Of a stretch of DNA of 64,000 nucleotides, positions 5,869 to 24,907 are shown piece by piece. Source of the DNA: Bacillaceae bacterium (GTDB lineage Bacteria > Bacillota > Bacilli > JACDOE01); NCBI GenBank assembly GCA_017656255.1, contig JACDOE010000002.1, forward strand, positions 4,033-68,032, given 5' to 3'. The stretch's first letter is position 1, and each line of letters begins with the position of its first letter. The notes under the pieces are model-generated. The model was not told where the DNA came from. It saw only the letters and a program-made list of their open reading frames with translations, and made no database searches. The translations under genes were made by a program, and so were the position numbers.

Positions 5869-6021
5869 GCAAAAAAATATGTAAACGATATAACCACGTT
5901 TGATAATCAGGGTTAATTTTAATTTGTATAAAATCAGATAAAAAGGAAAATAAGGGAATTATTTTTCGGTGAAAAAATTTAAAGCATATAAGGGTAAATT
6001 GTTAATACCTAATTTTACGGC

Positions 6022-6085
6022 ACTCAACTTCGATTACTTCATCATCTAGCCGGGGAAATTTCATTTTTACACATAATTTTGGACT
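6022..6085 (+). mobile_element. Solo IS256-family right-end remnant (about 65 bp, including the terminal inverted repeat)
   Basis: TTCATTTTTACACATAATTTTGGACT is identical to the right end of the intact IS at 16814..16840. Weaker upstream similarity (ACTCAACTTCGA...ACTTCATC) matches the last codons of the transposase gene. Confidence 0.6.
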
Positions 6086-6426
6086 CGACCGGAGGGGCTT
6101 TTCACCCTGAAGACAACCCTGGAATTCCATCCGATATATCACCGTCTCGAAGCCCGGATCCGTTCCCAAATTTTGCTGAGTTTGTTAGTATCATTACTTC
6201 TGGTAAGCATGGTCGAAGTGAAACGGGTGGGACCTGGAATAAGTTGAGTCACCTCCACGGTTCCTAGAAATCCATCCGGAAGCATAGACACGCCCACACG
6301 CCCTATTTCTATCTGAATACCTGTAAACCCAAGTATGACATGGATTTACAGGAATTTTATTTGCGTAGACGAACTCAGGTCTTTTTGGGGTTCTTTAAGG
6401 CTATCATCATAAACTTGAAAGAATAT

Positions 6427-9414
6427 TTATATGTTTTCCTTCAACTTTTCATAGCTTTCGGCTACTTTGTACTCGACATTTGTTTTTAGAGCTTCAAAAT
6501 GTTTGCGACCACACCTAATTTTTCCTACCTCTTTTAATCGTAGATCTTCTTGTTCTGTACTTCCTTTTGTTTCAACAACAAAGTATAACTTCTCTACACC
6601 TTGTATATCCATCAATATTGCCCAGTCAGGGTTGTAGTTTCCAAGTGGAGTATCAATGATAAATGAAGGCGGAAGTTTTACAAACAATTTGACGTCATCA
6701 TCGTTATTCAATTTTTCTGCAAAAGCTCGTTCCGTATTAGAATCATAACGAATGTAGTCATATACAGATTTATTTTTTGAAACTCCTATAGCATTTGCTT
6801 TCATGTAACCAATAAGCTCTTCATGTTCGAATAAGGACTGTTGGTAAAATTCATGGTCACCAATGCGCTCATATTTGATGCCATCGACAATGAGTTTTTT
6901 CTTCTCACGATTAATTATCTTCATAACTGCTTCCATAAATGCCTGTGGATTTTTCTCAAACTCATTTAAACGTTTAGAGCCGATTAAAATCTCAACCAAT
7001 GTACGACGCTTTAAATGGGTTTGTTCTTGAAGGTAACGTAAGATGTCTGGGAGGCGACGGTTCTCTTCCAATGCTTCGTAAACTCTAATCGTTTGACCTT
7101 CACCAGATACCCCAGATTGTTCTACTTTTAACAAAGCATTTTCTCTTTTAATCTTTCGTGCTTTGAAAGGCTCTAGTTTCTTTATTTCTTCAATACAACG
7201 TTTTTTAAGGGTTTCAACGTTAAGATCTACGGAATAGGTCGTTTTGTATTTGATTTGATTCCATAATTGTTTGAAATCATCCCCTAATAAAACTTCTTTA
7301 TTCAGTTTAATGGTAACCTCATCTTTTTTGTTAAAAACAGGTAACTTTTTGATAGAACGTCTAATCACGTGTTCAATATCGCCTTTTATTTCTTCAAATT
7401 CGGCCGGCACTGCAAATGTCTCTTTGACTAATGCTTCCTTAAGCGTGTCCTTTACTTTTCCTTGCTTCGTTATATAATTTTCTTTTAATAAGAATGAGAA
7501 AATTTTGGCTGATTTATCGTATCCAATTTCACTTTCTTGGCCTGTTTCTTCATCAACCATTGTAATCGTCGAAAAAGCATGCTCTTCAAGGTAACCGAAT
7601 TTAACGCCTGTTTCTTCTTCCATTTCTTTCTGTAGCGTCTCCGCAAACTCGTGATACGATTCGTTTGCGATTACGGTTAAGATATTTACGTCTTCATCAT
7701 ATTGGCGTTTACCTTCTTGGTTGACGGCAAGACGTAATCCACGTCCGATTTTTTGTCTTTTCGTAAATGTATCCTTTGTTTCAACAAGCGTACATATTTG
7801 AAAGACATTTGGGTTGTCCCATCCTTCTTTTAAAGCCGAGTGGGAGAAAATAAATCGTAAAGATGTATCAAAGCTTAATAGTTTTTCTTTCTCTTTCATA
7901 ATCAACTCAAATGTTGATTCATCGTCTTTATTCGAACGTAACGATCCATCTTTATTCATTCGGCTATCTTTAAATTGACCTTTCTTATCTTGAGAAAAAT
8001 ACCCGTTATGCACTTCTTCTGCATTACGGTTTACTATATATTTATCTTCTTTCCAAAGTGATTGGTACTTCGGTAAATTAATTAACTTTTCATATTCTTC
8101 TTCGAACATTTTGGCATATTTTCCTTTTTGCCAAGGTTGGCCTTTTGGGTAAATGCGGTAGTTTTCAACTTTGTCTATAAAGAAGAGCGTTAAAACTTTG
8201 ATCCCTTTATGAACGAGACGGAGCTCTTTATCTAAATGTGTACGAATCGCTTCACGAATTTGATACCTTTTTAGTAAATCGTCATCCATTCCGCCTATTA
8301 CTTCACCTAGTCGCAATACTTTACCGTTTGTAAACTCTACCGATTCATTTCCTGGATAACAATCAATTCCCTCTACCACATATCCTTTATACAGGTCCCG
8401 TTCACCGGATAAAAGGTATAAATCATTTTTTGTGTTTGGATTAATTTCCTTTTTCACACGTTTAACGGTACCGTTTTTCTTTTTCTCGTCTATTTCAATC
8501 GTAGCTTTGTAGCCATTTTTATTCGAAACACTAATGAGTTTAATGTATGGATCATTAAAATCATCATCCGAGTTTACCGATAATACCTCAATTTTTTTAA
8601 CTAACTTTTTTTCATACGCATCGACAGGGTCAAGCTTGTACATCAAATTGTATGTTTCCCGATGTGTAGCCGAATAACGTAATTTACACAATGGGTTTAA
8701 GGATGCAATTGCTTCTTTAGCTTTTTCCGTATTATCGACACTTTGTGGTTCATCGATAATGACAATTGGATTCGTTTCTTGGATGAACTGTATTGGACGT
8801 TTTCCGTTCATGGAATCACGTTCACGGTGAATTAAGTTTGCTTTATTTTCTTTTTCTGGATCATCGAAGCTCTTTTTAAATGCATCGATATTAATAATCA
8901 TCACTTCAATATTCGTACTTGTCGCAAAATCACGAACTTGTTCTAAGTCAGAAGAGTCATATTTAAAATAATGGCAATGTTGTCCTGGATACAGTTCAGA
9001 AAAGTGCTCTTCCGTCATTTGAAGGGATTTATAGACTCCTTCACGAATTGCAACACTTGGAACAACAATGATAAATTTTGAAAAACCGTACAGCTTATTC
9101 AATTCAAATATCGTTCTCGTATAAACATAGGTTTTACCGGTGCCTGTTTCCATTTCAACCGTAAAATTGCGATCTTGAATATCGGTACTTTTTTTCAAAT
9201 GATTGCGAATTTGGATCCTTTGGACGTTTTCAAGTAATTCAGCATCTGATATCTCCAACTTGTTTCCGATTCCTAGTTCGGTAAATTCTTGCCCCACAAT
9301 ATTGCCCATACTGACCGTGAAATTCGATACTTTTACAGGCTGCCCTTCAAAGATATCCGTAATGGATTTAATGGCGTCGAGCTGATATTGTTGTTCATCA
9401 AACTTAATCTTCAT
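6427..9414 (-). CDS. res: Type III restriction endonuclease Res subunit (SF2 helicase plus C-terminal PD-(D/E)xK nuclease)
   Basis: 995 aa. Helicase motif I TGTGKTYV and motif II IIDEPQ. C-terminal NPDW...VVETKG endonuclease motif. Lies immediately downstream of mod. Confidence 0.8.
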   Translation of the reverse strand: MKIKFDEQQYQLDAIKSITDIFEGQPVKVSNFTVSMGNIVGQEFTELGIGNKLEISDAELLENVQRIQIRNHLKKSTDIQDRNFTVEMETGTGKTYVYTRTIFELNKLYGFSKFIIVVPSVAIREGVYKSLQMTEEHFSELYPGQHCHYFKYDSSDLEQVRDFATSTNIEVMIINIDAFKKSFDDPEKENKANLIHRERDSMNGKRPIQFIQETNPIVIIDEPQSVDNTEKAKEAIASLNPLCKLRYSATHRETYNLMYKLDPVDAYEKKLVKKIEVLSVNSDDDFNDPYIKLISVSNKNGYKATIEIDEKKKNGTVKRVKKEINPNTKNDLYLLSGERDLYKGYVVEGIDCYPGNESVEFTNGKVLRLGEVIGGMDDDLLKRYQIREAIRTHLDKELRLVHKGIKVLTLFFIDKVENYRIYPKGQPWQKGKYAKMFEEEYEKLINLPKYQSLWKEDKYIVNRNAEEVHNGYFSQDKKGQFKDSRMNKDGSLRSNKDDESTFELIMKEKEKLLSFDTSLRFIFSHSALKEGWDNPNVFQICTLVETKDTFTKRQKIGRGLRLAVNQEGKRQYDEDVNILTVIANESYHEFAETLQKEMEEETGVKFGYLEEHAFSTITMVDEETGQESEIGYDKSAKIFSFLLKENYITKQGKVKDTLKEALVKETFAVPAEFEEIKGDIEHVIRRSIKKLPVFNKKDEVTIKLNKEVLLGDDFKQLWNQIKYKTTYSVDLNVETLKKRCIEEIKKLEPFKARKIKRENALLKVEQSGVSGEGQTIRVYEALEENRRLPDILRYLQEQTHLKRRTLVEILIGSKRLNEFEKNPQAFMEAVMKIINREKKKLIVDGIKYERIGDHEFYQQSLFEHEELIGYMKANAIGVSKNKSVYDYIRYDSNTERAFAEKLNNDDDVKLFVKLPPSFIIDTPLGNYNPDWAILMDIQGVEKLYFVVETKGSTEQEDLRLKEVGKIRCGRKHFEALKTNVEYKVAESYEKLKENI

Positions 9415-9429
9415 GACTCCATCTCCTCC

Positions 9430-11325
9430 TTAAATGACGCGGATATCTTCGACGCCATAACGTTTTAAAATTTGTTGTGCATTAATTCGAACGGTATCAT
9501 CTTTAAACCCTTCATCATAAAATACAACTCGTGCAGGTTTTTTCTGCGCAATTTCTTCAATATGTTCAAGCGTTAAATCTCTTTCTAAACAAATGAGTAA
9601 ATATCCCATACCCACTGAATAAACAACTTTATCAGCTACTTTTGTTTCTTCAATTGGAACTGTTAAATCAACACCATACTTGAGTAAAATTTCATACACA
9701 ACATCTTCTTGTGTACGCCCTTCTTTCACCGGATCAATTAAATCTAGTAAATTTCTTTCTACATCTGCTGTATTCTCATCCCAAACCTTTAAATTTGTAT
9801 CATCAAGCTTGAATACCTTAAACCCGATATCAAGATTCTCAATTCCTTCCTTGTCTTTATTCTCTTCCAATATCTTCTGACCCGCACGGCGAATACGTTC
9901 TTTTCCGATTTCACATATATTTTTAAAGCCTGCTTTAAATGCTTCTTTTTGATCATTTATTGGTTCATCTAATTGAATAAGGATAAACTTCCTTTTTCCA
10001 TTATCTTCGCTATTTAAATCAAAAACAGCATGAGCCGTAGTACTTGATCCTGCAAAAAAATCAAGTACTGTATCATGCTCTCCAAGTCCTAGCATCAATG
10101 ACTTCTTAATTAATTCCACAGGCTTTGGATGGTCAAAATACGAGGAACTAAAAAGCTCTCTAAAGACTATTGTTCCACGTTCTGTCCTAACATCCGCTTC
10201 ATCCCATATAGTCTTAGCTTTTGTAAGTGTTTTTCTATTTTTCTCATAAATATTCCATCCACCATTACGCTTTTCCTTAGCAATAACATTACTGTTTTCC
10301 GGATCATTTTCAATAATGTTTTCCGATAATAAATTTACCCCCCATCTCCAACAACTATCTTTCCCTTGACTATTTAATGGAAATACCTCTATATATTTAT
10401 CATTTTCTTTTACTAGATTTACAGGTGAAAATCCGTTCTTGTCTTTTATGTCAGGGTTAACATAAATTGGATAATAAAGATTTGGCCTGTTATTTTTGTT
10501 AAATTTCGGATTACGATTTCTTAATTCTCTTAATTCAAATCTTCCTTTATTGTCTTCATATTTAAATGATGACGTATCGGCCTTTGGAAGTAAGTTCAGA
10601 GTAGATTCATTGCTTTTAAAATAACATATCAAATATTCATGTGTTTTAGCTAAGTCTAAATAGTCTTGACCACCTTTATTCGTTTGTACAATGATTTGCC
10701 CTACAAAGTTGTGTTCACCAAAAATCTCATCACATATCTTCCGCAAATTATGAACTTCATTGTCATCAATACTTATAAATATTACACCATTATGTGTTAA
10801 CAAATTTTTCGCTAACTTTAAACGAGGATACATCATATTAAGCCAATCAGTATGATACCTACCATTTGTTTCTGGGTTTGATTTCATGCTTTCTTCATTC
10901 TTTTCTTTATAGTTTTTAATATTATCATGGAAGTCATCTTTATAAACGAAATCATTCCCTGTGTTATATGGTGGGTCAATGTAAATCATTTTTATTTTGT
11001 TACGATAGGAGTTCTGAAGAACGCGGAGTACTTCTAGGTTGTCTCCTTCAATATACAGGTTTTTTGTTGTATCCCAATTCACACTTTCCTCTTTACATGG
11101 TCGAAGTGTGCCTGTGGTTTGTTTTTGCGCAAGTTGAATGGCCTTTGTTTTTCCATTCCAAGTAAATTCATAGCGCTCTTTTTCTTTTTCAAGGTGTTCG
11201 CCAAGTGTCAGCAAGAGCTTTTCAACGTCAATTTTGTTTTCTGTAAATACTTCAGGGAAAAGTTGTTTTAGTTTTTCAATGTTGTCTTGTACAACGTTAA
11301 ATGTCTTTCCATCTAATTTTTGCAT
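9430..11325 (-). CDS. mod: Type III restriction-modification Mod subunit (N6-adenine DNA methyltransferase)
   Basis: 631 aa. Motif IV DPPYN and SAM motif FFAGSSTT. Size and mod-res order are typical of type III systems. Confidence 0.85.
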   Translation of the reverse strand: MQKLDGKTFNVVQDNIEKLKQLFPEVFTENKIDVEKLLLTLGEHLEKEKERYEFTWNGKTKAIQLAQKQTTGTLRPCKEESVNWDTTKNLYIEGDNLEVLRVLQNSYRNKIKMIYIDPPYNTGNDFVYKDDFHDNIKNYKEKNEESMKSNPETNGRYHTDWLNMMYPRLKLAKNLLTHNGVIFISIDDNEVHNLRKICDEIFGEHNFVGQIIVQTNKGGQDYLDLAKTHEYLICYFKSNESTLNLLPKADTSSFKYEDNKGRFELRELRNRNPKFNKNNRPNLYYPIYVNPDIKDKNGFSPVNLVKENDKYIEVFPLNSQGKDSCWRWGVNLLSENIIENDPENSNVIAKEKRNGGWNIYEKNRKTLTKAKTIWDEADVRTERGTIVFRELFSSSYFDHPKPVELIKKSLMLGLGEHDTVLDFFAGSSTTAHAVFDLNSEDNGKRKFILIQLDEPINDQKEAFKAGFKNICEIGKERIRRAGQKILEENKDKEGIENLDIGFKVFKLDDTNLKVWDENTADVERNLLDLIDPVKEGRTQEDVVYEILLKYGVDLTVPIEETKVADKVVYSVGMGYLLICLERDLTLEHIEEIAQKKPARVVFYDEGFKDDTVRINAQQILKRYGVEDIRVI

Positions 11326-12101
11326 CAGTCACACAACTCCTTTAATTCACTTAAAAGTGATTCAATGTTTGCTTGAATTTGTTTCATTTCTATATGAAGT
11401 TCCATCTTTATGCCAAAGTCTAACACATGATTTTGTTTTTGTTTTAATTCCTCTAACTGAGATTTTCTTACATTGACTTCTGATAACTTAGAAATGATTA
11501 AATCACGACTTTCATCTTGAGTTGGAAAGCACTCTATCCACTCAATGATTGGTGAACACTGCAACCAACGATTCAAGTCATCATAAAATTTGTAGAGATC
11601 AACAAACGATTGATTCGAGCACTTTAAGGCGTTTAGCAACTTTTCGTAGGAACTGTTATTGTTTTTTGGATGGAACCACCCAGTCAGTAATGGTTCATCC
11701 AACACAACTTTGGTAGGATCATTTTTATTCAACCGCTTATGACATGTGCTCAGCAACCACTCTTTTTCCTTTGACTCCATAATCAAAACAGCTGGATTTG
11801 GAATCGATTTATGAATCGCATGGATTATTCGATTAACATGTTGGTTCGTACGTAATTGTACATAAATCCAAACCACTTCAGCATATTGATGCACCTCTGA
11901 CTGATACGTAGAGATATTCATGCTTTGACGATTCATTACACTCAGTAAGTATATTCCTTCTATTTGAGAAGTAAATAGCTCTTTCTCCTTTTTCGATAAG
12001 TCACCTTGAGAAAAGAATGTTTTTTTCGGAACTTTTCGATTTAACACCGTTCTTTGCGGTATCTCAAACTGCTGGATAACCCATTCTCGCAACCTTCTCA
12101 C
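11325..12101 (-). CDS. DUF4391-like hypothetical protein of the helicase/type III module
   Basis: 258 aa with no catalytic motifs recognised. Its start/stop junctions are shared with the flanking genes (12102/12101 and 11325/11325). Size and context resemble DUF4391 proteins that accompany SNF2 helicases and DNA methyltransferases. The family assignment comes from memory of the architecture, not from an HMM. Confidence 0.45.
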   Translation of the reverse strand: MRRLREWVIQQFEIPQRTVLNRKVPKKTFFSQGDLSKKEKELFTSQIEGIYLLSVMNRQSMNISTYQSEVHQYAEVVWIYVQLRTNQHVNRIIHAIHKSIPNPAVLIMESKEKEWLLSTCHKRLNKNDPTKVVLDEPLLTGWFHPKNNNSSYEKLLNALKCSNQSFVDLYKFYDDLNRWLQCSPIIEWIECFPTQDESRDLIISKLSEVNVRKSQLEELKQKQNHVLDFGIKMELHIEMKQIQANIESLLSELKELCD

Positions 12102-16979: not shown

Positions 16980-17549
16980 ATGTTTAGGATGTGTATATCT
17001 ATGACTGGAATAATATTTGTAGGAGGAATTCATGGAGTTGGTAAAACAACTTTATGCAAGCAAATATCTGAACAGTTTAAATTATTACATTATTCAGCGA
17101 GTGATTTAATATCACAAAGGAAAAAAGTCGATTTTAATAATGAGAAAAAAGTTAGGAATATAAATGAGAACCAAAATTTATTACTGGAGGCAATAAATTG
17201 TTTAGATACTCGAGATAATTGTTTATTATTAGATGGTCATTTTTGCTTAATAAACACATTTGGAGAAATTAGAAAAATTCCTATTGAGACATTTATTAAT
17301 TTATCACCTAGCGCAATAATCTGTTGTACTGAATCTCCTACAAAAATTTTTACTAGGTTAAAAGAGAGAGATAACATAAATTATGATATTAATTTTTTAG
17401 AAAGATACCAAAGAATCGAATTAGCATATTCACAAGAAATATCAGAGAAATTAAATGTACCTTATTTCGTTTACTCTCCGGTCGAAGAAATGAATAATTT
17501 TTATAAATTTTTAGAAAGAATAATTAAAGGAGGGGTAGAATGTGAGTGA
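16980..17549 (+). CDS. Small P-loop NTPase / nucleotide-kinase-like protein
   Basis: Walker A GGIHGVGKTT near the N-terminus, about 185 aa, kinase-like size. An alternative start at 17001 is possible. Very AT-rich. The next gene overlaps its 3' end. Confidence 0.55.
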   Translation: MFRMCISMTGIIFVGGIHGVGKTTLCKQISEQFKLLHYSASDLISQRKKVDFNNEKKVRNINENQNLLLEAINCLDTRDNCLLLDGHFCLINTFGEIRKIPIETFINLSPSAIICCTESPTKIFTRLKERDNINYDINFLERYQRIELAYSQEISEKLNVPYFVYSPVEEMNNFYKFLERIIKGGVECE

Positions 17550-18591
17550 TTATTTAGAAAGAAGAAAATTTAAGGATGTTGATTTAAACGATAATTTTTT
17601 TGATTCTCTAAAAGAAGATTATCACGAATTTGAAACTTGGTTTAGAAAAAAAGAAGAAGAGGAAGCGTTTTTACTATATGATAATGATAATAAAATTCAA
17701 GGATTTCTTTATTTTAAAATTGAGGAAGGTCCAATAAAAGATGTTGAACCAGACATTAATCAAAAAAAAGTATTGAAAATCGGAACTTTTAAAATTAACC
17801 CTCATGGTACTAGATTAGGTGAGCGTTTTATAAAGAAGGCTTTAGATTATGCCATTGTAGAGAATGTAGATGCGTGTTATGTTACTATTTTTGAAAGGCA
17901 TGATGTCTTAGTAAAGCTGTTTGAAAGGTATGGTTTTATTAGGTACGGCGTTAAAGATACATCCAACGGGATTGAACTAGTTTTAGTTAAAGATTTGCGT
18001 GAGTTAAAGAATGATATATTATTGGATTATCCTTTAATCAGTACAAAAAATTCAAGAAAATTCATCCTTTCAATTTACCCTAAGTACCATTCAAGGATGT
18101 TTCCGGATTCTATCTTAAAAACTGAAAAAGTCGATATTCTAGAAGATGTTTCATATACGAATAGTATACATAAGATATATGTTTGTAGAATGGCTGTCGA
18201 TCAAGCGAACCGTGGAGATATCTTTGTAATATATCGCACAAAAACTCCTGGACAAAGTGCCGAATATACATCTGTTGTAACATCAGTGTGTGTTGTAGAG
18301 GATATAAAGAGTCAAGATGAATTTAAAAACTTTGAAGAATTTTTTGAATATGCTAATGCTTATAGTATATTTAATCGTGATGATCTAAAAAAGTGGTATA
18401 ACAAAGGGGGATGTTTTATTATCAAAATGACTTACAATGCAGCTTTGAGTAAAAGATTAATTAGAAAAAAACTAATTGAAGAAATAGGTCTTGAACGTAA
18501 TAGCTATTGGGGATTTTTCGAAATATCAAATGAGCAATTTAATCGAATTCTAGAAGAAGGTGAAGTTAATGAAAGTATTATTATCGATTAA
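17542..18591 (+). CDS. GNAT-fold acetyltransferase-like protein with about 190-aa uncharacterised C-terminal domain
   Basis: GTG start with RBS AAAGGAGGGG. The N-terminal half carries the GNAT motif-A-like HGTRLGERF. The C-terminal half has no recognisable motif. Overlaps both neighbours (8 nt upstream, 23 nt downstream). Confidence 0.5.
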   Translation: MSDYLERRKFKDVDLNDNFFDSLKEDYHEFETWFRKKEEEEAFLLYDNDNKIQGFLYFKIEEGPIKDVEPDINQKKVLKIGTFKINPHGTRLGERFIKKALDYAIVENVDACYVTIFERHDVLVKLFERYGFIRYGVKDTSNGIELVLVKDLRELKNDILLDYPLISTKNSRKFILSIYPKYHSRMFPDSILKTEKVDILEDVSYTNSIHKIYVCRMAVDQANRGDIFVIYRTKTPGQSAEYTSVVTSVCVVEDIKSQDEFKNFEEFFEYANAYSIFNRDDLKKWYNKGGCFIIKMTYNAALSKRLIRKKLIEEIGLERNSYWGFFEISNEQFNRILEEGEVNESIIID

Positions 18592-18943
18592 ACCCGAATA
18601 TGTTGAACAAATTGAAAATGGAAACAAAAAATTCGAATATAGAAAAAGAATTTTTAAAAAAAATGTTGATTCGGTAGTGGTTTACTCAACAAAGCCGGTT
18701 GGGAAAATAGTTGGAGAAATTATAATAGAAGAAATTATAAATGATTCTCCAGAAGAAATTTGGAACAAGACAAATAAATATTCTGGAATCTCAGAAGAAA
18801 ACTTTAAAAATTACTTTTCTAATCGAAAGGAAGGGTTTGCTATAAAGATCAAGAAATTTCTTAAATATGATAAACCTTTAAATCCATTTGAAATTTTTAA
18901 TGATTTTGTACCTCCGCAGTCTTATAAATATATAGAAAGATAA
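18569..18943 (+). CDS. ASCH (PUA-like) domain protein
   Basis: MKVLLSIKPEYVEQIENGNKKFEYRK is the canonical ASCH N-terminal pattern. About 124 aa. Start is inside the 3' end of the upstream gene; the ORF-track start at 18560 is GTG. Confidence 0.65.
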   Translation: MKVLLSIKPEYVEQIENGNKKFEYRKRIFKKNVDSVVVYSTKPVGKIVGEIIIEEIINDSPEEIWNKTNKYSGISEENFKNYFSNRKEGFAIKIKKFLKYDKPLNPFEIFNDFVPPQSYKYIER

Positions 18944-19008: not shown

Positions 19009-21366
19009 ATGATACGAACAGGCGTTAGGTGGCTAGAATCCGAAACTCGCAAAATATTTAATGCAACCAAAAAATCAGACGAATTATTGGCATATCTTGA
19101 TTCACTTTTATTTCATAAAAAAGTGGCTACTGGAAGTGCTGAATCATTTGAATCTGGTCGAAAGCAGGGCAGAATGACGTATTATAAAGAAAATAAAAGA
19201 TTCATTGTAGCCGCACCTAGAAAAAAAGGAGATTACATACATGTCGTCCTAACAATCCAAACTATCAGCAGAGCTGAAATGGAGGAACAGGGATTTAAAT
19301 TGGGAAACCAACATGATATTTATCTCTATAATAAAGAAGAAATAGAAAGGTTTGTCGATTTTTTAAATTTTAAACTAAACCGGGGACGACAATTAAAATT
19401 ATCATCACTGGTGTTGAAAGAATGGATTAAGAGATACATACAAGATGAAGATAGTCGTAAACGATATAAACAAGTTAATAAATCCAGATTTACAACACTT
19501 GAACATTTTAAAATTTATCTTGAACAGTTAAAATCCGGTGACCTGTCGCTATTAGAATTTAAAAAGAACATTGACCAGTTATTTAAAACAAAACATGAAA
19601 TAGCCGGCGAAAAAATCAACATATGGGGATTCAGCGGCTTTTCAGGTCAAATGTTTTTCAACCAAATCTGTAATCAGGTTGAACATGCCGGAATGATGGA
19701 TGAATTAACCAATGCTTTTCTTGAGGCAATTGAATTACCTGAACAAATCAACCATGATTTCAGCTGGGTCAAACATAAATTTCAAACCTTTATTGAAATC
19801 ATTAAAATATCGGCTAAAAAAGCCATTGAGAACGGGTTTCCCCCACAAAAATGTGCCAAAGTTAAATTTTCAACATTTTTCTTAAGTTTTTTCTGGGGGA
19901 TTCAGGATCTTTATCATATCCCGATTTATTATCGGTCTTCCAGAGATGCACTGGAGTATCTAGAGTATCCACTTAATCAAAACACTAAACATTTTGATGG
20001 AACCAATTACATATATTTTGCAGAACGTATGAACGAAGTTTCTGACGAAGTATCCACTTATTTGCCTGATGACAATACATTTAACATGTTAGAGCTGGAA
20101 CATTTTCTTCATTATGTAAAACAAAAAGTTGAGGAACAAAAGCAAAGTCAGGATGAAATTTACACTCTTTCAGATGATTTGTTTGCAGAGAGAATCAAGA
20201 ATACATTTATTGATATAGGAATCGTGATCGATGAGATGTCCAGCTCAATGGGTGAAGAGACGGATTTACCCGAGAGCCATCATGGCCAGGAGGTATGGCG
20301 GTTTTCGGGGAAGACAAACAAAGATGCCATGGTTTCTTATCTATTCTGCTGGGATAATCCGGATACGTATCTTTCCACCGTTTATGAAGAAGATGAAGAA
20401 GGTGCCTCCAAAAATATAGGGGAGATAGGCGGAGAAAATGAAGATGACTTCCTCCGCAATATGAAAAGATTTTTCATAGATCGTTTTAAGGAAAAAAAGC
20501 CCTATACACTTGAAGATGCGGTAGGGGAGACTTATATTGAAAAGAAATTGCTGGAAGAATGGCTGGAGCTTTTAAGTGAAAACAAGCAAATTATTTTTTA
20601 TGGTCCGCCCGGAACGGGTAAAACCCTTGTTGCCAAAAAACTGGCAAAAATACTGGCACAGCACGAAAACAGAACACGATTTATCCAATTTCACCCTTCT
20701 TACACCTATGAAGAATTTATAGAGGGACTGCGTCCTGAACTGGTTAAGACGGATCAGGGGACTTCCCAGTTATCCGTTAAAGTAAAACCCGGTATTTTTA
20801 AATCCTTATGTAAAGAAGCTTCAAAACCGGAAAATAAGTATGATTCCTATGTTTTAATTATCGATGAGATTAATCGCGCAAACACAGCTAAAGTATTTGG
20901 AGAATTGTTATATGCGCTGGAATACCGTGATACGCCGGTCCCTCTTCCTTACTCGAATGAAGATAAATTAATCGTTCCTTCAAATGTGTATCTGATTGGA
21001 ACCATGAATACGACTGACCGGTCCCTGGCCCATATAGATTTTGCTTTACGTCGCCGGTTTCAATTTATCCCCTTTTTTCCAGAGCAAACCGAACACGTCT
21101 TAAAATCATATCTGGATAAACATCAACCGGAAATGTCATGGGTCTTTGATCTTGTTAAATACGTTAATCAAAAAATAGAAGATCCCCATTATGCGATCGG
21201 ACACAGTTACTTTATGGGCCAGGAATTAACTGAAGAGAAGTTGGAACGAATATGGAAGTATCAGATTATACCTTATCTTGAAGAATGCTTTGTTCATCAG
21301 CCTGATAAAATAGAAGAATTTAAACTGGAAACGTTATTGGAAAATGGGGAGTTCAGGCATGACTAG
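19009..21366 (+). CDS. McrB-like AAA+ GTPase with long N-terminal putative DNA-recognition region
   Basis: The C-terminal 260 aa carry Walker A GPPGTGKT and the McrB signature IDEINRANTAKVFGELLYALEYR. The N-terminal 520 aa are unassigned. Confidence 0.75.
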   Translation: MIRTGVRWLESETRKIFNATKKSDELLAYLDSLLFHKKVATGSAESFESGRKQGRMTYYKENKRFIVAAPRKKGDYIHVVLTIQTISRAEMEEQGFKLGNQHDIYLYNKEEIERFVDFLNFKLNRGRQLKLSSLVLKEWIKRYIQDEDSRKRYKQVNKSRFTTLEHFKIYLEQLKSGDLSLLEFKKNIDQLFKTKHEIAGEKINIWGFSGFSGQMFFNQICNQVEHAGMMDELTNAFLEAIELPEQINHDFSWVKHKFQTFIEIIKISAKKAIENGFPPQKCAKVKFSTFFLSFFWGIQDLYHIPIYYRSSRDALEYLEYPLNQNTKHFDGTNYIYFAERMNEVSDEVSTYLPDDNTFNMLELEHFLHYVKQKVEEQKQSQDEIYTLSDDLFAERIKNTFIDIGIVIDEMSSSMGEETDLPESHHGQEVWRFSGKTNKDAMVSYLFCWDNPDTYLSTVYEEDEEGASKNIGEIGGENEDDFLRNMKRFFIDRFKEKKPYTLEDAVGETYIEKKLLEEWLELLSENKQIIFYGPPGTGKTLVAKKLAKILAQHENRTRFIQFHPSYTYEEFIEGLRPELVKTDQGTSQLSVKVKPGIFKSLCKEASKPENKYDSYVLIIDEINRANTAKVFGELLYALEYRDTPVPLPYSNEDKLIVPSNVYLIGTMNTTDRSLAHIDFALRRRFQFIPFFPEQTEHVLKSYLDKHQPEMSWVFDLVKYVNQKIEDPHYAIGHSYFMGQELTEEKLERIWKYQIIPYLEECFVHQPDKIEEFKLETLLENGEFRHD

Positions 21367-22579
21367 GCGACAGTGGTACCGGATCAAGGAATATCAAACA
21401 CGGCAAGGGGTTCAACTGTCTGAACAGAGTGTCCAGTTGTTACACAATCATTTTCGTCAAGTGGTCAAAGTAAGAAAAGCAGCGGATGGCTCCTGGGACA
21501 TAAAGGCCAATTCGATCGTGGGCCACATTAACTTACCAGACGCCATCATTCAAATTGAACCCAAAATCCCCATACAAACATTGTGGGAATGGATGGCGTG
21601 GGCGTATGATTTAAAGTCCCTGGAAATCTATCCATCCATGTCACCGTTCCAGCATCATGTTGGTGATCAAGAATGGCTGGTCAAAATCTTTTTATATGAA
21701 TGTGAAAAGATATATTCACAGGGGATTTACAAGGGATATGTGACGCGTGAAGAGGCCCTGGGGCATGTTCGGGGTCAATTAAATGCTTATCCGACCTTTC
21801 GTTTATGGCTTCAAAATGACTATCAATTTCTGTGCACCTTTGACGAATTGACATATGGGGTGACGGAAAATGAAATTATTTTCGCTGGCTTGCAGGACAT
21901 GAGCTCTAAAACTTTTCAAGATCCTGAGGTAAAGTCCCGGATTCATAAATTGATCCATGTATTTGGCGCTGAATTTTCTACCACACCGAAAAGATCGCCG
22001 CAGGAATGGATCGACATGATTGATAGTATCAAGATAACCCGACTCAATCACCATTACACCCGGGCGTTCCGTTTGTTGCGTTTATACTGGGAGGCTGCTG
22101 GACTTTCTTTTCAAAAGGGGAACATACAATGTCACAGTTTTTTGCTGGATATGAATGAGCTTTTTGAGCGCTACATTGCCAAAAGGTTGCAACATGAATT
22201 AAGTCCCTATCATGTGAATGTCATAGCCCAAAAGCAGGACTGGCTGGCAGTCGGAGGGCGCATTAAAATTGTTCCTGATCTAATCATCAAAGATGCGTCA
22301 GGTGACGAGATTGTTCTGGATACAAAGTATATCGGAAAAACCGAAGAGAGCTCCATCAACAGTCATATCTTCCAGATGCTTGCCTATTTAACTGCTCGGC
22401 AATCTAAAAAAGGCATTCTTCTTTACGTTTTTGGACCTGAACGGGAGGACGTGATTAAAAATACCGATATGGTTATATATCAATGGGGATTTATGGATAA
22501 TGAATTCAAGGAAGATGGCAAAGCGTTGACGGATAAGATTATGGGTCTGTTTAATAAACATTTATCTCATTCTAGTTAA
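21359..22579 (+). CDS. McrC-like PD-(D/E)xK nuclease subunit
   Basis: C-terminal VPDLIIKD...EIVLDTKY (PD...D/ExK). Overlaps the McrB-like gene. RBS GGGGAG lies upstream of the ATG at 21359; the ORF track begins at 21344. Confidence 0.7.
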   Translation: MTRRQWYRIKEYQTRQGVQLSEQSVQLLHNHFRQVVKVRKAADGSWDIKANSIVGHINLPDAIIQIEPKIPIQTLWEWMAWAYDLKSLEIYPSMSPFQHHVGDQEWLVKIFLYECEKIYSQGIYKGYVTREEALGHVRGQLNAYPTFRLWLQNDYQFLCTFDELTYGVTENEIIFAGLQDMSSKTFQDPEVKSRIHKLIHVFGAEFSTTPKRSPQEWIDMIDSIKITRLNHHYTRAFRLLRLYWEAAGLSFQKGNIQCHSFLLDMNELFERYIAKRLQHELSPYHVNVIAQKQDWLAVGGRIKIVPDLIIKDASGDEIVLDTKYIGKTEESSINSHIFQMLAYLTARQSKKGILLYVFGPEREDVIKNTDMVIYQWGFMDNEFKEDGKALTDKIMGLFNKHLSHSS

Positions 22580-22592: not shown

Positions 22593-22829
22593 TTGTCCAC
22601 ACAAAGTGATGCCATTATAAAAGCTTTTGAAGAATTAGGAGGTACCAGGAGCATTAGAGAAATAGAGGATTGGGTTAACAGAAAGTATGGAGCCAAATGG
22701 AAGGATTTTAGTACGTTGATGGCTGATATGGTACCTGTGTCTCATGGTGGCAATACTTCTTCAACTGTACCCGAAGAAAAACGGGTTTTAGAAAGGGTTT
22801 CACGGGGCTATTATCGTTTGATAAAATGA
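22593..22829 (+). CDS. Stand-alone winged-helix protein (Mrr_N / HARE-HTH-like)
   Basis: 78 aa with a TTG start after RBS AAGGAGGGG. Pattern SIREIEDWV...RVSRGYYRL resembles the N-terminal wHTH of Mrr-type restriction enzymes. Confidence 0.45.
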   Translation: MSTQSDAIIKAFEELGGTRSIREIEDWVNRKYGAKWKDFSTLMADMVPVSHGGNTSSTVPEEKRVLERVSRGYYRLIK

Positions 22830-23341
22830 TTCACAAATTCGAATTAACATTTTCAAAAAATATATTAATTTCTCTTAATATATTCACAAATATGAAGCAC
22901 AATACTACCAATTGAGTTTGGTGATCTAGTTTCTTTCCACCATAAATTTTCAGTACTTAATGATTGAATGCATTTAACAACTTGGAGAGGTAATGATTGT
23001 ACATCCTGGCTTTTGAAATTTTAATAAATAGTTTCAAAGTTTCATTTGCCATTGACTCATTCCCCTATTTAACCAAGTTCTAATTTATTATTATATAGAA
23101 TAATTTGAGTTGCAGCTACTAACCACGCGTGCCTCCAAATCCTACAGGTATTTTTGCCATCAATCGCATCCATGCAACAAATATTAGAGATAACCTTTTT
23201 GATTTAAACTATTCATTATTGCAGAATCTTCATGGTATACTAATGTTACATATCCAACTGTATAAAGTCTTCTAACACGGCAACACTAATCCTAAAAACT
23301 TTTTAGGAGGTGAGGTCGTGGATAAAAAGGAGGGGAACGAT

Positions 23342-23494
23342 ATGCTCACTCCGGTTAAGCCTATTAACAAAGCCAAAAAAACAGGACTAACAAAGGATAA
23401 GAAGGAGCTTATGAAGAAATATCAGGGGTCTGCTTCTGCTCCGGTAGATTTGAATAAAATACGCCAGTGGTCAAAGAAGAATGAATCTCATTAA
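23342..23494 (+). CDS. Lys-rich 50-aa micro-ORF overlapping the PIN gene start
   Basis: Strong RBS AAAAGGAGGGG lies 6 nt upstream of the ATG. Product MLTPVKPINKAKKTGLTKDKKELMKKYQGSASAPVDLNKIRQWSKKNESH. Not in the ORF track because it is below the size cut-off. Confidence 0.3.
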   Translation: MLTPVKPINKAKKTGLTKDKKELMKKYQGSASAPVDLNKIRQWSKKNESH

Positions 23495-24041
23495 TTTCTC
23501 AGATAATTTCACAGGTTTTCATGAAGGCGAGGATATTTTAGTTGATACTGGAATATTACTTGCCTATTTTAATGAGTATGATGCGTATTATTCCACTGTT
23601 AAGGACCTGTTTGATAATCACATTTATGGAACCGATAGAACCCTGTTCCTTTATGTAAATCCAACTATCGTCAACGAGATTACCCATTTAGCCCAGGATC
23701 CTGTAAAAAGATATTTAAACGCATATCCTTCAGAACGGGATAAGTTTGATATGATTACCTTAATTAATTTGCAAAATAAGATAGCAAACGGAGTAAAGAA
23801 TTTAATTGAAAATGAAATCCTGTATGTGCTGGATGGAAACGAAGAAAGCGTGAAAAAACAGATTGAACTATACAAGACTTTAGGGTCTGCTGATGCTGTG
23901 AATGCATCTGTTGCTAATCTTTATGGGACAAGCTTCTTAACGGTAGATGCAAAACTGGCTTACAATCTAAAAAGCGTTGAAAATCAACTTCCTTACATCC
24001 AAAATGTATACTATACAACTTCTAGATACCGTGATTTCTAA
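23481..24041 (+). CDS. PIN-domain (VapC-like) protein
   Basis: Acidic residues sit in the positions expected of a PIN domain: ILVDTG near the N-terminus and LTVD near the C-terminus. 186 aa. Confidence 0.45.
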   Translation: MNLINFSDNFTGFHEGEDILVDTGILLAYFNEYDAYYSTVKDLFDNHIYGTDRTLFLYVNPTIVNEITHLAQDPVKRYLNAYPSERDKFDMITLINLQNKIANGVKNLIENEILYVLDGNEESVKKQIELYKTLGSADAVNASVANLYGTSFLTVDAKLAYNLKSVENQLPYIQNVYYTTSRYRDF

Positions 24042-24149
24042 AAGAAGTAGGAAAACCAAAAAAATAACGAACGAAGTGTTCCAGAAGGAACAGTCCCAAC
24101 TTCGTCAGGTTGAACAATCAGTTATACCTTTATTTAAATAACCTCGCCG

Positions 24150-24593
24150 TTATTTGAACAATTTTTCGTTAAACCATACTGTCAAAAGTGTAATAAATAC
24201 ACTAATAAACCCGGCATACACGTAAGCAGGAGTAAAAAAGATAAATATATCTTGAACGACATCATACGCCTTGGTTTGCAGTTCTGGAAATTCATAACTA
24301 CCGATTTCCCTAGAGCCTAACCAAAGAAGCAATATCCTTTCAAGAATCATTGGAATCAGAGATACCATAAAGGCAAATTTATATGGTTGACTGATCTGGC
24401 CATTCTTTTTAAAACTTATTGTTATGAACCCTAAAATAATATAAGGTATGACAATGAGCAATGTCCCAATGACTATTTCAACGTGGCCAAAATAAATTCT
24501 GGTGCCGAATCCAATACCGCTGATTATTCCATAGACTAACAAATACATAACCCAGCTTACAATAAAATATCCAGCCTTCTTTAGCATTTTCAA
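24150..24593 (-). CDS. Hypothetical integral membrane protein
   Basis: 147 aa with four predicted hydrophobic helices. Last gene of the AT-rich island. Confidence 0.5.
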   Translation of the reverse strand: MKMLKKAGYFIVSWVMYLLVYGIISGIGFGTRIYFGHVEIVIGTLLIVIPYIILGFITISFKKNGQISQPYKFAFMVSLIPMILERILLLWLGSREIGSYEFPELQTKAYDVVQDIFIFFTPAYVYAGFISVFITLLTVWFNEKLFK

Positions 24594-24907
24594 TCCCCCT
24601 TTGCAGGAATAAGAATAAGGGAGAAGCCACCTTATTCGTTTAGTTATGAGATCACTTTCTGTCTATAGTAACGTTTATAATTTCCATAACGTTTCTATGA
24701 GTTAGCAAAATTAATCCCCGATTGTAGTGTAGGTTACGGTTGAGCAATACAGCACAATCCAATCATGAAACAGCAAAGTTATTTCAAAATCACAAAATAA
24801 ATCTTGTTAACCCCCAAAAATTCCCCTATAATAAACCCAACAAAACTTTTCTTAACACTTAAGAAAATTATTGAAAAATCCAAACTAAAACCACAGGGAG
24901 AACCAAC

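What the first reader, a model, noticed from the sequence alone, without database searches (positions are those of the whole stretch)
5880..24900. About 19-kb AT-rich genomic island inserted immediately downstream of the glmS terminator
Seen in sequence: base composition drops sharply, by eye from above 50% GC in cdaA..glmS and in the ROK/msmX genes to roughly one-third GC, between the glmS terminator (5821..5868) and the ROK regulator gene at 24908. The interval contains only defense and mobile functions: type III R-M with helicase, an IS256 element, the kinase/GNAT/ASCH operon, McrBC, a wHTH protein, a PIN protein, and a membrane protein. Established: the 3' flank of glmS is a classic integration hotspot (attTn7), and cdaA-cdaR-glmM-glmS is a conserved core operon. 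No Tn7-like tnsABCD genes or integrase are present, so the route of acquisition is not evident. The McrB gene is itself mosaic: AT-rich up to about 20.2 kb and GC-richer afterwards through mcrC.
Basis: partly seen in the sequence, partly recalled or inferred. Interest (0 to 1): 0.6.

Follow-up and report, generated by a model that had tools for sequence, protein, structure and literature searches.

The report
Mosaic defence island downstream of glmS
A 19-kb stretch of foreign-looking, AT-rich DNA right after the essential gene glmS in an uncultured Bacillaceae genome is a patchwork of separately acquired anti-phage systems and an insertion sequence, which is a real but ordinary kind of bacterial defence island.

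Summary
Window 5,880-24,900 has 34.9% GC against 51.3% for the rest. Third-codon-position GC is 0.18-0.47 inside and 0.58-0.69 in the flanking core genes.

- a type III Mod/Res pair with DUF4391 and an SNF2 helicase;
- an IS256 element;
- a kinase-like gene with GNAT and ASCH genes (PADLOC candidate PDC-M11);
- McrBC;
- a small putative wHTH gene;
- a PIN toxin pair;
- a membrane protein.

No integrase, Tn7 genes, Tn7-like ends or flanking repeats were found.

Three things are new. First, the island is a mosaic of at least four modules with significantly different GC3, not one insert. Second, a 64-bp relic of a second IS256-family right end sits at 6,022-6,085. With the full IS256, which lacks a target-site duplication, it brackets the type III-like cassette. 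Third, in five related genomes synteny ends at glmS, and each carries different DNA after it. That DNA is lower in GC than glmS in the four relatives measured. The locus is therefore variable, but no empty site could be recovered.

The "mosaic McrB" idea is not supported, because full-length homologues share the same architecture.

One caveat: the contig runs through a multi-copy IS, so the join of the two halves is unverified.

The parts
3684..3855 (+). glmS ribozyme (core flank, not part of the island)
   Evidence: Rfam RF00234, 115.8 bits
3985..5811 (+). glmS coding sequence. The true start is MCGIVG, 27 codons inside the longest ORF. It is the left core flank.
   Evidence: Pfam SIS and GATase domains; translation; 100% identical to P0001, 'MAG: Bacillaceae bacterium'; GC3 0.64
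5820..5868 (+). glmS intrinsic terminator (17-bp stem with one bulge, then a U9 run)
   Evidence: RNA fold -25.3 kcal/mol, z = -6.7, 0 of 200 shuffles as stable
5869..6021 (.). Very AT-rich spacer (22-37% GC). This is the left compositional boundary.
   Evidence: 100-bp GC profile; no ORF or family hit
6022..6085 (+). Relic of the right end of an IS256-family element, including its terminal inverted repeat
   Evidence: blastn: 56/64 identical (88%, 2 indels) to 16,780-16,839, same orientation, E = 2e-15
6086..6426 (.). Non-coding segment of intermediate GC (0.38-0.53), unexplained. It contains a hairpin just downstream of the res stop codon.
   Evidence: GC; no Pfam, Rfam or plasmid match; fold z about -1 on both strands
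6427..9414 (-). Type III restriction subunit (Res): helicase motifs plus a C-terminal PD-ExK endonuclease
   Evidence: PADLOC REase_III, 1,042 bits, full length; Pfam ResIII and RE_endonuc; motifs GTGKT91, DEPQ221, PD929..ETK
9430..11325 (-). Type III methyltransferase (Mod)
   Evidence: PADLOC MTase_III, 711 bits, full length; Pfam N6_N4_Mtase; DPPY at residue 117
11325..12101 (-). DUF4391 protein, a conserved cassette component of unknown role
   Evidence: Pfam PF14335, E = 2.6e-44; same position in cassettes on plasmids and metagenome contigs
12102..15347 (-). SNF2-family helicase with a degenerate PLD-like N-terminal domain (PADLOC 'HKD+Snf2')
   Evidence: PADLOC C3a139, 470 bits; DrmD models at 118-136 bits; NCBIfam DrmD 169 bits, far below the 610 cut-off; HxK motif absent here (HVQNKSDD) and in most homologues
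15456..16842 (+). Complete IS256-family insertion sequence (25-nt imperfect terminal inverted repeats; transposase 15,565-16,830). It has no target-site duplication.
   Evidence: Inverted repeat I2; flanks GCAATAAG and TCGACATT; NCBIfam transpos_IS256, 400 bits; 80-81% aa identity to copies in Brevibacillus and Geobacillus; GC3 0.47; an independent Logan contig breaks 32 nt inside its right end
16980..17549 (+). P-loop kinase-like protein, first gene of a three-gene module
   Evidence: Pfam AAA_17/AAA_18; Walker A GIHGVGKT; 31% identical (E = 4e-26) to the 'ATP-binding protein' next to GNAT+ASCH on a Vibrio plasmid
17542..18591 (+). GNAT-like protein, PADLOC candidate PDC-M11A
   Evidence: PADLOC PDLC04419, 489 bits, full length; weak Pfam Acetyltransf_1 hit
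18560..18943 (+). ASCH-domain protein, PADLOC candidate PDC-M11B
   Evidence: PADLOC PDLC04425, 166 bits; Pfam ASCH
19009..21366 (+). McrB-family GTPase with a 495-aa N-terminal region of unassigned fold
   Evidence: NCBIfam McrB over aa 485-771; PDB 6ut6/6hz4 by sequence and by fold; GPPGTGKT, VLIIDE and NTTD motifs; N-terminal model at pLDDT 87 with no PDB fold match at E<=1e-3
21344..22579 (+). McrC nuclease subunit
   Evidence: Pfam McrBC, E = 1.3e-41; PD311..DTK motif
22593..22829 (+). 78-aa ORF, putative winged-helix protein. It has a TTG start and a GGAGGGG ribosome-binding site, 14 nt after mcrC.
   Evidence: ORF list; weak Pfam DUF7669 hit, E = 0.0019, below cut-off. It was not called as a gene in the Logan annotation of the identical contig.
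23318..24041 (+). Two overlapping ORFs: a 58-aa putative antitoxin (23,318-23,494) and a 186-aa PIN-like toxin (23,481-24,041)
   Evidence: ORFs overlap by 14 nt; Pfam PIN E = 3.4e-4, just below the gathering score
24150..24593 (-). 147-aa hydrophobic protein with no family assignment. It is the last gene with island-like composition.
   Evidence: ORF and translation; GC 0.34, GC3 0.35; no Pfam hit
24594..24907 (.). AT-rich intergenic region holding the right compositional boundary and a promoter-like site for the ROK operon (24,804-24,832)
   Evidence: GC 0.30-0.34; TTGTTA-17-TATAAT
24908..28272 (+). Right core flank: ROK regulator, MsmX-type ABC ATPase and ROK sugar kinase
   Evidence: Pfam; GC3 0.63-0.69; the cluster is conserved in Microaerobacter and other relatives, where it is not adjacent to glmS

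Best explanation
The interval is a horizontally acquired defence island. It fills a variable locus that begins immediately after the glmS terminator in an uncultured Bacillaceae genome of about 51% GC.

It was built stepwise from at least four modules with different compositional histories:
1. A self-contained four-gene cassette, SNF2(PLD-like)-DUF4391-Mod-Res. This is a type III restriction-modification system with two accessory proteins. Mod should methylate host DNA at adenine, and Res should translocate on and cut unmethylated invading DNA. The SNF2 and DUF4391 roles are unknown.
2. A host-type IS256 element.
3. A three-gene kinase-like/GNAT/ASCH module (PADLOC candidate PDC-M11, mechanism unknown).
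4. A McrBC type IV system that should cut modified DNA. It is followed by a small putative DNA-binding protein, a PIN toxin-antitoxin pair and a small membrane protein.

Shown: the compositional break, the gene identities, the integrity of catalytic motifs, the heterogeneity between modules, the IS256 relic and the missing target-site duplication, and the different cargo after glmS in relatives.

Inferred:
- IS256-family elements delivered or rearranged the type III-like cassette, as a decayed composite-transposon-like unit.
- The other modules arrived by separate events, probably homologous or illegitimate recombination at a permissive site behind a terminator. Insertions there do not disturb the essential operon.
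- Tn7-type targeting was not involved.
For: Foreign composition:
- GC is 34.9% against 51.3%, and GC3 is 0.20-0.47 against 0.62-0.65.

Defence content and integrity:
- Full-length PADLOC, Pfam and NCBIfam matches for all main genes.
- Catalytic motifs are present in Mod, Res, McrB and McrC.

Mosaic origin:
- Pairwise GC3 differences between the cassette, IS256, PDC-M11 and McrBC modules have p from 4e-6 to 6e-22.

The modules are independently mobile elsewhere:
- The four-gene cassette stands alone on plasmids of Paraburkholderia, E. coli and the archaeon Methanomethylovorans (51-57% aa identity). It is also present in most of 80 metagenome loci.
- GNAT+ASCH occurs on plasmids of many phyla, next to IS630 in Paenibacillus larvae.
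- McrBC of this family is a two-gene insert between housekeeping genes in a Paenibacillus-type contig.

IS involvement:
- A 64-bp IS256-family right-end relic lies at 6,022-6,085, in the same orientation as the full IS at 15,456-16,842.
- The full IS has no target-site duplication.
- The IS is multi-copy in the sample, since an independent contig breaks 32 nt inside its end.

Variable locus:
- In L003, L004, L098 and L099 (GlmS 82, 72, 69 and 68% identical) the operon up to glmS is conserved where the contig reaches upstream (L004, L098, L099).
- The DNA after glmS differs in every genome and drops 8-24 GC points for at least 1-3 kb; in L003 only 430 bp is available.

Precedent:
- E. coli defence hotspot #37 has no detectable mobile element in 68% of occupied cases (PMC10121019).
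Against: - No empty site and no second strain could be found. The only other contig with these genes is 100% identical and probably comes from the same sample.
- The nearest relatives are distant, so 'acquired' rests on composition and on differing cargo, not on a presence/absence polymorphism.
- The ROK cluster is not glmS-adjacent in any relative. The region may mark an old synteny breakpoint rather than an insertion between two formerly adjacent genes.
- The IS relic is only 64 bp and 88% identical. It may be an unrelated older insertion rather than the partner of a composite transposon.
- No homologue of any island protein above 65% identity was found, so no donor or recent transfer can be named.
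- None of the systems has been tested for function.
Confidence: 0.75

Rival explanations
1. Assembly join. The source is a metagenome-assembled contig that runs through a multi-copy IS256. The left half (glmS plus the type III-like cassette) and the right half (PDC-M11, McrBC, PIN, ROK operon) may be two separate low-GC islands from different places in the genome, joined in silico at the repeat.
For: - The independent Logan assembly of SRR13776092 breaks 32 nt inside the IS256 right end, as expected for a repeat.
- The IS has no target-site duplication. Collapsing two different IS copies would give exactly that.
- The ROK cluster is not next to glmS in any relative.
Against: - The deposited contig is 274,577 bp, so its assembler resolved this repeat by some means that cannot be checked here.
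- IS-mediated recombination in vivo gives the same signature.
- Even if true, each half is still a low-GC defence island abutting core genes, so the main conclusion survives for 5,869-15,455.
Confidence: 0.12
2. One-step insertion of a single 19-kb element at an attTn7-like site downstream of glmS. It would be a Tn7-like or other site-specific element that later lost its transposition or integration genes.
For: - The position directly after glmS matches the classical Tn7 target (established knowledge).
- A cassette of the same family lies 1.9 kb downstream of glmS in an unrelated 25%-GC organism (L044/L045).
Against: - No tnsA-E or tniQ, no integrase and no recognisable pseudogene of them in ORFs or non-coding fragments.
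- No terminal inverted repeats, and no flanking direct repeats above chance. The longest shared word is 12 nt, within the range seen in shuffled sequences.
- The glmS terminator is intact, and AT-rich DNA starts 58 nt after the stop codon.
- The modules differ strongly in GC3.
- L045 also lacks tns genes within 15 kb after glmS.
Confidence: 0.07
3. Ancestral region. The low-GC genes are old residents of this lineage, and their composition reflects selection or mutation bias rather than transfer.
For: - No presence/absence polymorphism could be shown.
- All four relatives examined also have lower-GC DNA after glmS.
Against: - GC3 is 0.25-0.45 lower than in both flanks, too large for amino-acid constraints alone.
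- The relatives carry different genes there.
- Homologues of each module are scattered over plasmids of unrelated phyla and archaea.
- An IS and an IS relic are present.
Confidence: 0.03

Closest known systems
Defence islands at chromosomal hotspots without recognisable mobility genes (for example E. coli hotspot #37, Hochhauser et al. 2023, PMC10121019; the Listeria immigration control region, PMC10059834)
   Same: Several unrelated defence systems are clustered between core genes. Cargo varies between genomes, no integrase or complete mobile element is present, and IS elements occur.
   Different: Here hotspot status rests on five distantly related genomes, not on a population of strains. 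No empty site is known. The right flank is not syntenic in relatives.
Tn7 and Tn7-like genomic islands at attTn7 downstream of glmS (established knowledge)
   Same: Foreign DNA is placed directly after the glmS terminator, leaving the essential gene intact.
   Different: There are no tnsABCD/tniQ genes, no Tn7 ends and no 5-bp duplication. The composition is heterogeneous, which argues against a single element.
IS256 composite transposons such as Tn4001 (established knowledge)
   Same: An IS256-family end and a full IS256 in the same orientation bracket a 9.4-kb cargo, the type III-like cassette.
   Different: One partner is only a 64-bp relic at 88% identity. The outer target-site duplication cannot be checked. 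The full copy has no duplication of its own.
Class 1 DISARM (DrmA, DrmB, DrmC, DrmD, DrmMI)
   Same: An SNF2 helicase related to DrmD, a PLD-like domain and an adenine-type methyltransferase sit in one operon. On a B. cereus plasmid the same four-gene cassette directly follows drmA and a DUF1998 gene.
   Different: DrmA and DrmB (DUF1998) are absent here and in all 80 metagenome loci. The DrmD score is far below the NCBIfam cut-off (169 against 610 bits). A type III Res nuclease and DUF4391 are present instead. The PLD motif is degenerate.
E. coli McrBC
   Same: The AAA+ GTPase core has the same fold (Foldseek E = 4e-16 to 6ut6) and carries an NTTD motif. The McrC partner has a PD-DxK motif.
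   Different: The 495-aa N-terminal region has no sequence or fold match to the E. coli or Thermococcus McrB DNA-binding domains.

Membership tests
Horizontally acquired genomic island | Base composition and codon usage deviate from the host core | tested here: met
   34.9% against 51.3% GC; GC3 0.20-0.47 against 0.62-0.65; p <= 1e-8
Horizontally acquired genomic island | Absent from the same locus in related genomes (an empty site, or different cargo) | tested here: inconclusive
   Relatives with 82, 72, 69 and 68% GlmS identity carry different DNA after glmS. No close relative and no empty glmS-ROK junction was found.
Horizontally acquired genomic island | Integrase or flanking direct repeats | tested here: not met
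   No integrase or recombinase domain. The longest shared flank word is 12 nt, within chance.
Horizontally acquired genomic island | Presence of mobile-element sequences | tested here: met
   Complete IS256 at 15,456-16,842 and an IS256-family relic at 6,022-6,085
Defence island | Several distinct defence systems adjacent to one another | tested here: met
   Type III R-M with SNF2/DUF4391, PDC-M11, McrBC and a PIN toxin-antitoxin pair within 18 kb
Tn7-like element at attTn7 | tnsA/B/C plus tnsD/tniQ genes | tested here: not met
   None found among ORFs or fragments
Tn7-like element at attTn7 | Terminal inverted repeats with repeated transposase-binding sites and a 5-bp duplication | tested here: not met
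   No inverted word of 11 nt or longer is shared between the left edge (5,781-6,450) and the right edge (22,801-25,000)
IS256 composite transposon | Two IS256 copies flanking the cargo | tested here: inconclusive
   One full copy and one 64-bp right-end relic, in direct orientation, 88% identical
IS256 composite transposon | 8-9-bp target duplication at the outer ends | not testable with these tools
   The outer left end is deleted. The full copy's own flanks, GCAATAAG and TCGACATT, differ.
Type III restriction-modification | Mod methyltransferase with catalytic motif IV | tested here: met
   PADLOC MTase_III, 711 bits; DPPY at residue 117
Type III restriction-modification | Res with SF2 helicase motifs and a PD-(D/E)xK nuclease, adjacent to mod | tested here: met
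   PADLOC REase_III, 1,042 bits; GTGKT, DEPQ, PD..ETK; 15-nt gap to mod. NCBIfam type III endonuclease scores 362 bits, below its 564 equivalog cut-off.
Type III restriction-modification | Methylation and restriction activity | not testable with these tools
   Needs methylome sequencing and phage or plasmid challenge
DISARM class 1 | DrmA helicase and DrmB (DUF1998) | tested here: not met
   Absent from the window and from 80 related loci. Present only next to the B. cereus plasmid cassette.
DISARM class 1 | DrmD equivalog | tested here: not met
   NCBIfam DISARM_DrmD scores 169 bits against a 610 cut-off
McrBC (type IV restriction) | McrB AAA+ GTPase core and McrC nuclease in an operon | tested here: met
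   PDB 6ut6/6hz4 by sequence (E = 1e-49) and by fold (E = 4e-16); Pfam McrBC E = 1e-41; the genes overlap by 23 nt
McrBC (type IV restriction) | N-terminal modified-DNA-binding domain of a known type | tested here: not met
   No Pfam, PDB-sequence or PDB-fold match for aa 1-495
PADLOC candidate PDC-M11 | Adjacent PDC-M11A and PDC-M11B genes | tested here: met
   489 and 166 bits, full-length matches; the genes overlap
PADLOC candidate PDC-M11 | Demonstrated anti-phage activity | not testable with these tools
   Only one listed paper mentions PDC-M11, once in its text. That paper was not read.

The most novel reading that the evidence does not exclude
The 3' flank of glmS may be a Tn7-independent capture site for defence cassettes that recurs across lineages. 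Five related Bacillales-type genomes each carry different DNA there, lower in GC than glmS in the four relatives measured. An unrelated 25%-GC organism (L044/L045) has the same SNF2-DUF4391-Mod-Res cassette family 1.9 kb after glmS, between a NERD nuclease and a reverse transcriptase, again without tns genes or an integrase. If this is more than coincidence, some unrecognised targeting or selection mechanism directs defence DNA to this site. Separately, the kinase-like/GNAT/ASCH trio and the McrB with an unassigned 495-aa N-terminal region could be functionally new defence variants.
Probability: 0.12. Interest if true: 0.55.

Novelty: new member of a known kind. Interest (0 to 1): 0.27.

Why it matters
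The result adds one more documented defence island that sits behind a conserved essential operon and lacks an integrase. It comes from a poorly sampled Bacillaceae lineage whose nearest GlmS is 82% identical. It also shows that the island is a patchwork shaped by IS256 rather than a single insert. That is useful for annotation, and as a source of untested systems (the SNF2/DUF4391-assisted type III cassette, three-gene PDC-M11, and McrB with an unassigned N-terminal region). It does not change how such islands are understood. The glmS-flank pattern would matter only if a wider survey showed enrichment beyond chance.

Tried and rejected
Searches for an empty site:
- Exact look-ups of GlmS failed three times. 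The ROK look-up returned only a 100%-identical contig from what is probably the same sample.
- A degenerate 41-nt pattern from the glmS 3' end found nothing in metagenome contigs.
- Contexts of the nearest ROK homologues (61-64% identity) showed no glmS linkage.

Searches for a donor:
- Megablast of the whole island found only about 77-79% identity over 0.3 kb in B. cereus plasmids, and nothing in phages.

Flanking repeats or att sites:
- Nothing above chance.

The 6,086-6,426 segment:
- No plasmid DNA match, Rfam hit, Pfam hit on six-frame fragments or unusual RNA fold.

Truncated-DISARM idea (IS256 having removed drmA and drmB):
- Rejected, because the four-gene cassette stands alone on plasmids and in 80 metagenome loci.

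ARMADA II:
- Considered and rejected. It requires a DUF1998 helicase-nuclease and a UvrD-like protein (PMC13463889).

McrB as a recent chimera:
- Rejected on homology.

Fold of the McrB N-terminal region:
- Only weak PDB hints: DUF1801/YdhG at probability 0.91, and HhH-type glycosylase-like folds at low probability.

Full report
**Observation.** The composition shift is real and large. In 1-kb windows, GC is 0.50-0.56 over cdaA-glmS. It falls to 0.28-0.43 between about 6,000 and 24,900, apart from a bump to 0.47 over the IS256, and is back at 0.57 by 25,000-26,000. The interval 5,880-24,900 is 34.9% GC and the rest of the window is 51.3%. Third-position GC is 0.58-0.64 in cdaA, cdaR, glmM and glmS and 0.63-0.69 in the ROK regulator, msmX and the ROK kinase. 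It is 0.18-0.47 in every gene between them. Pooled by module, each differs from both flanks at p <= 1e-8. At 100-bp resolution the left switch follows a strong intrinsic terminator (hairpin 5,820-5,860 plus U9; -25.3 kcal/mol, z = -6.7). The right switch coincides with the ROK start codon at 24,908.

**Source and flanks.** GlmS, the ROK regulator and McrB are 100% identical to proteins of a 'MAG: Bacillaceae bacterium' contig of 274,577 bp. The lineage is poorly sampled: the next GlmS is 82% identical, then 72%, then about 69%. The left flank is the conserved cdaA-cdaR-glmM-glmS operon with its glmS ribozyme at 3,684-3,855. The same gene order occurs in L004, L098 and L099. The true glmS start is at 3,985 (MCGIVG), not 3,904.

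On the minus strand lie four genes:
- Res (6,427-9,414), matching PADLOC REase_III at 1,042 bits over its full length.
- Mod (9,430-11,325), matching MTase_III at 711 bits.
- A DUF4391 protein (11,325-12,101).
- A 1,081-aa SNF2 helicase with a PLD-like N-terminus (12,102-15,347), matching PADLOC 'HKD+Snf2' at 470 bits.

On the plus strand lie the rest:
- The IS256 transposase.
- A P-loop kinase-like protein.
- A GNAT-like and an ASCH protein, which are full-length matches to the PADLOC candidate pair PDC-M11A and PDC-M11B (489 and 166 bits).
- McrB and McrC.
- A 78-aa putative winged-helix ORF, and a 58-aa ORF that overlaps a PIN-like gene.

A 147-aa membrane protein lies on the minus strand at the right end.

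Catalytic motifs are present in Mod (DPPY), Res (GTGKT, DEPQ, PD..ETK), McrB (GPPGTGKT, VLIIDE, NTTD) and McrC (PD..DTK). No frame is interrupted. No integrase, recombinase or Tn7 gene was found in ORFs of 90 aa or more, or in the fragments of the non-coding stretches.

**The island is a mosaic.** GC3 is 0.28 for the type III-like cassette, 0.47 for the IS256 transposase, 0.20 for the kinase/PDC-M11 trio, 0.37 for McrBC and 0.35 for the PIN pair plus membrane gene. The differences among the first four have p from 4e-6 to 6e-22.

Each module also occurs on its own elsewhere:
- The four-gene cassette, in the same order, stands alone on plasmids of Paraburkholderia, E. coli and the archaeon Methanomethylovorans. 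The last is 51-57% identical in Res and SNF2, closer than the Bacillus cereus copy. It is also present in most of 80 metagenome loci at 45-63% identity.
- GNAT+ASCH pairs occur on plasmids of many phyla. One sits beside an IS630 in Paenibacillus larvae.
- McrBC of this family is a two-gene insert among housekeeping genes in a Paenibacillus-type contig.

The 19 kb is therefore best read as an accretion of separate acquisitions, not as one element.

**Route of acquisition.** The complete IS256 spans 15,456-16,842 and has 25-nt imperfect terminal inverted repeats. Its 8-bp flanks, GCAATAAG and TCGACATT, are not a target-site duplication. A blastn search of the IS against the window found a second, 64-bp copy of its right end at 6,022-6,085. 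It is 88% identical, has two small indels and lies in the same orientation. Thus [relic of an IS right end] - 9.4 kb holding the type III-like cassette - [full IS256] has the layout of a decayed composite transposon. The missing duplication shows that the sequences on the two sides of the full IS were not originally contiguous.

The transposase is 80-81% identical to copies in Brevibacillus and Geobacillus. Its GC3 is nearer to the host's, so it looks like a resident IS rather than imported cargo.

No direct or inverted repeat above chance links the outer edges of the island. The longest shared word is 12 nt, and its right-hand copy lies inside the PIN gene; shuffled sequences reach 12-15 nt in 27 of 200 trials. 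Nothing resembles Tn7 ends.

**Is it an insertion between glmS and ROK?** This could not be shown. The only other contig carrying these genes (Logan, SRR13776092) is 100% identical over 19,190 bp and starts 32 nt inside the IS256 right end. It is therefore not an independent strain, and it shows that the IS is repeated in that sample. In the nearest genomes with the ROK-(MsmX)-ROK kinase cluster (61-64% identity), that cluster lies next to other genes, never next to glmS.

The relatives do show that synteny stops at glmS:
- L003 (82%) has 30.5%-GC DNA with small membrane-like ORFs.
- L004 (72%) has MFS, LysR and Uma2 genes at 33-46% GC.
- L098 (69%) has DUF8370/8371, MerR and others.
- L099 (68%) has 2 kb of 37-43% GC, then a MalT-like regulator and an SLH protein.

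In each case glmS itself has 8-24 points higher GC. The flank is thus a variable locus in this group.

**A caveat on the assembly.** The deposited contig passes through a 1.39-kb multi-copy IS that lacks a duplication. The join of the left half (glmS side) to the right half (ROK side) is therefore not independently verified. If it is wrong, there are two islands rather than one, each still abutting core genes. I give this 0.12.

**The type III-like cassette.** On a B. cereus plasmid the same four genes directly follow drmA and a DUF1998 gene, which makes a DISARM-like array. This raised the possibility that IS256 had removed drmA and drmB here. It is unlikely, because the cassette stands alone on three other plasmids and none of the 80 metagenome loci has DrmA or DrmB nearby. 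The SNF2 protein scores far below the DrmD equivalog cut-off (169 against 610 bits). Its PLD-like domain lacks the HxK catalytic motif (HVQNKSDD here), and the motif is absent from nearly all homologues. The Res PD-ExK domain is therefore the likely nuclease. ARMADA II, a recently described DISARM relative, has different components (PMC13463889).

**McrB.** There is a modest GC3 gradient: 0.29 for aa 1-400, 0.38 for aa 401-785 and 0.45 for mcrC. Nineteen homologues at 43-49% identity cover 82-100% of the protein, including ones from Evansella, Paenibacillus and Aneurinibacillus. They align through the N-terminal region at 33-49% identity and through the AAA+ part at 63-74%. The architecture is thus old and shared, and the identity difference reflects ordinary differences in conservation. 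I find no support for a recent chimera.

The N-terminal 495 aa model confidently (pLDDT 87) as three sub-domains but match no solved fold at E <= 1e-3. The only hints are a DUF1801/YdhG-like domain and low-probability glycosylase-like folds. The AAA+ part matches E. coli McrB.

**How it most likely works.** The following is inferred from family knowledge.
- Mod methylates host DNA, and Res, perhaps assisted by the SNF2 and DUF4391 proteins, cleaves unmethylated invaders.
- McrBC cleaves DNA that carries foreign modifications. The two systems are compatible because type III Mod enzymes make N6-methyladenine.
- PDC-M11 with its kinase-like partner is a candidate system of unknown mechanism.
- The PIN pair may act as a toxin-antitoxin or abortive-infection module.

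None of this was tested.

**Comparison and novelty.** Defence islands at hotspots with no recognisable mobility genes are well documented. In E. coli hotspot #37, 68% of occupied cases have no detectable mobile element (PMC10121019). This region is a new member of that kind. The resemblance to attTn7 is positional only.

One curiosity: an unrelated 25%-GC organism (L044/L045, GlmS 46-47% identical) carries the same cassette family 1.9 kb after glmS, between a NERD nuclease and a reverse transcriptase and before cysS, again without tns genes. One independent case among 80 loci is about what chance allows, so I treat it as a lead only.

**Verdict.** The region is an ordinary, intact-looking, mosaic defence island shaped by IS256 in a variable locus behind glmS. 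Interest is 0.27.

Noticed in passing
window 6022-6085: A 64-bp relic of an IS256-family right end, 88% identical to 16,780-16,839 and in the same orientation. Together with the full IS256 it brackets the type III-like cassette.
   Followed up: yes
window 6086-6426: A non-coding segment of intermediate GC (0.38-0.53) between the IS relic and the res stop codon. It has no match in Pfam (six-frame fragments), Rfam or plasmid DNA, and no unusual RNA fold. Its origin is unknown.
   Followed up: yes
window 16980-18943; L017 5992-7944: The kinase-like P-loop gene is homologous (31% identity, E = 4e-26) to an 'ATP-binding protein' that follows GNAT+ASCH on a Vibrio tubiashii plasmid. The PADLOC candidate PDC-M11 therefore seems to have an optional third gene whose position varies. 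P. larvae plasmid L016 has only the pair.
   Followed up: partly
window 19009-20493: The McrB N-terminal 495 aa model well (pLDDT 87) as three sub-domains, with an invariant WGFSGFSGQMFFN motif (aa 206-218). They match no solved fold at E <= 1e-3. The only weak hints are DUF1801/YdhG-like and glycosylase-like folds. In Paenibacillus-type locus L014, DUF1801 genes lie near the homologous McrBC.
   Followed up: partly
window 14950-15000 (SNF2 protein aa 130-147); L005, L011-L013, L018-L097: The PLD-like domain that PADLOC labels 'HKD' lacks the HxK catalytic motif here (HVQNKSDD) and in nearly all homologues. It is probably non-catalytic.
   Followed up: yes
L045 6395-22000 (also L044): In an unrelated organism of about 25% GC, the same cassette family lies 1.9 kb downstream of glmS. 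A NERD nuclease precedes it, and a reverse-transcriptase gene and cysS follow it. There are no tns genes or integrase.
   Followed up: partly
L005 5722-19455 (B. cereus plasmid NZ_AP022875.1): The same four-gene cassette directly follows drmA and a DUF1998 gene, forming a six-gene DISARM/type III hybrid array.
   Followed up: partly
window 28300-29200: A second small low-GC patch (about 0.43) holds a short AhpC/TSA_2-like ORF (28,639-29,079, GC3 0.33) between the ROK kinase and cggR. Relatives L006, L008 and L010 have pfk directly after the ROK kinase.
   Followed up: no
window 16811 (start of L001): The independent Logan contig of SRR13776092 begins 32 nt inside the IS256 right end. This indicates that the IS is multi-copy in that sample and that the MAG contig bridges a repeat.
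   Followed up: partly
window 3904-3984: The longest glmS ORF starts 27 codons upstream of the conserved MCGIVG start. This stretch lies downstream of the glmS ribozyme (3,684-3,855). The true CDS starts at 3,985.
   Followed up: yes
window 44729-44958: Cobalamin riboswitch (Rfam RF00174, 94.8 bits), outside the finding.
   Followed up: no
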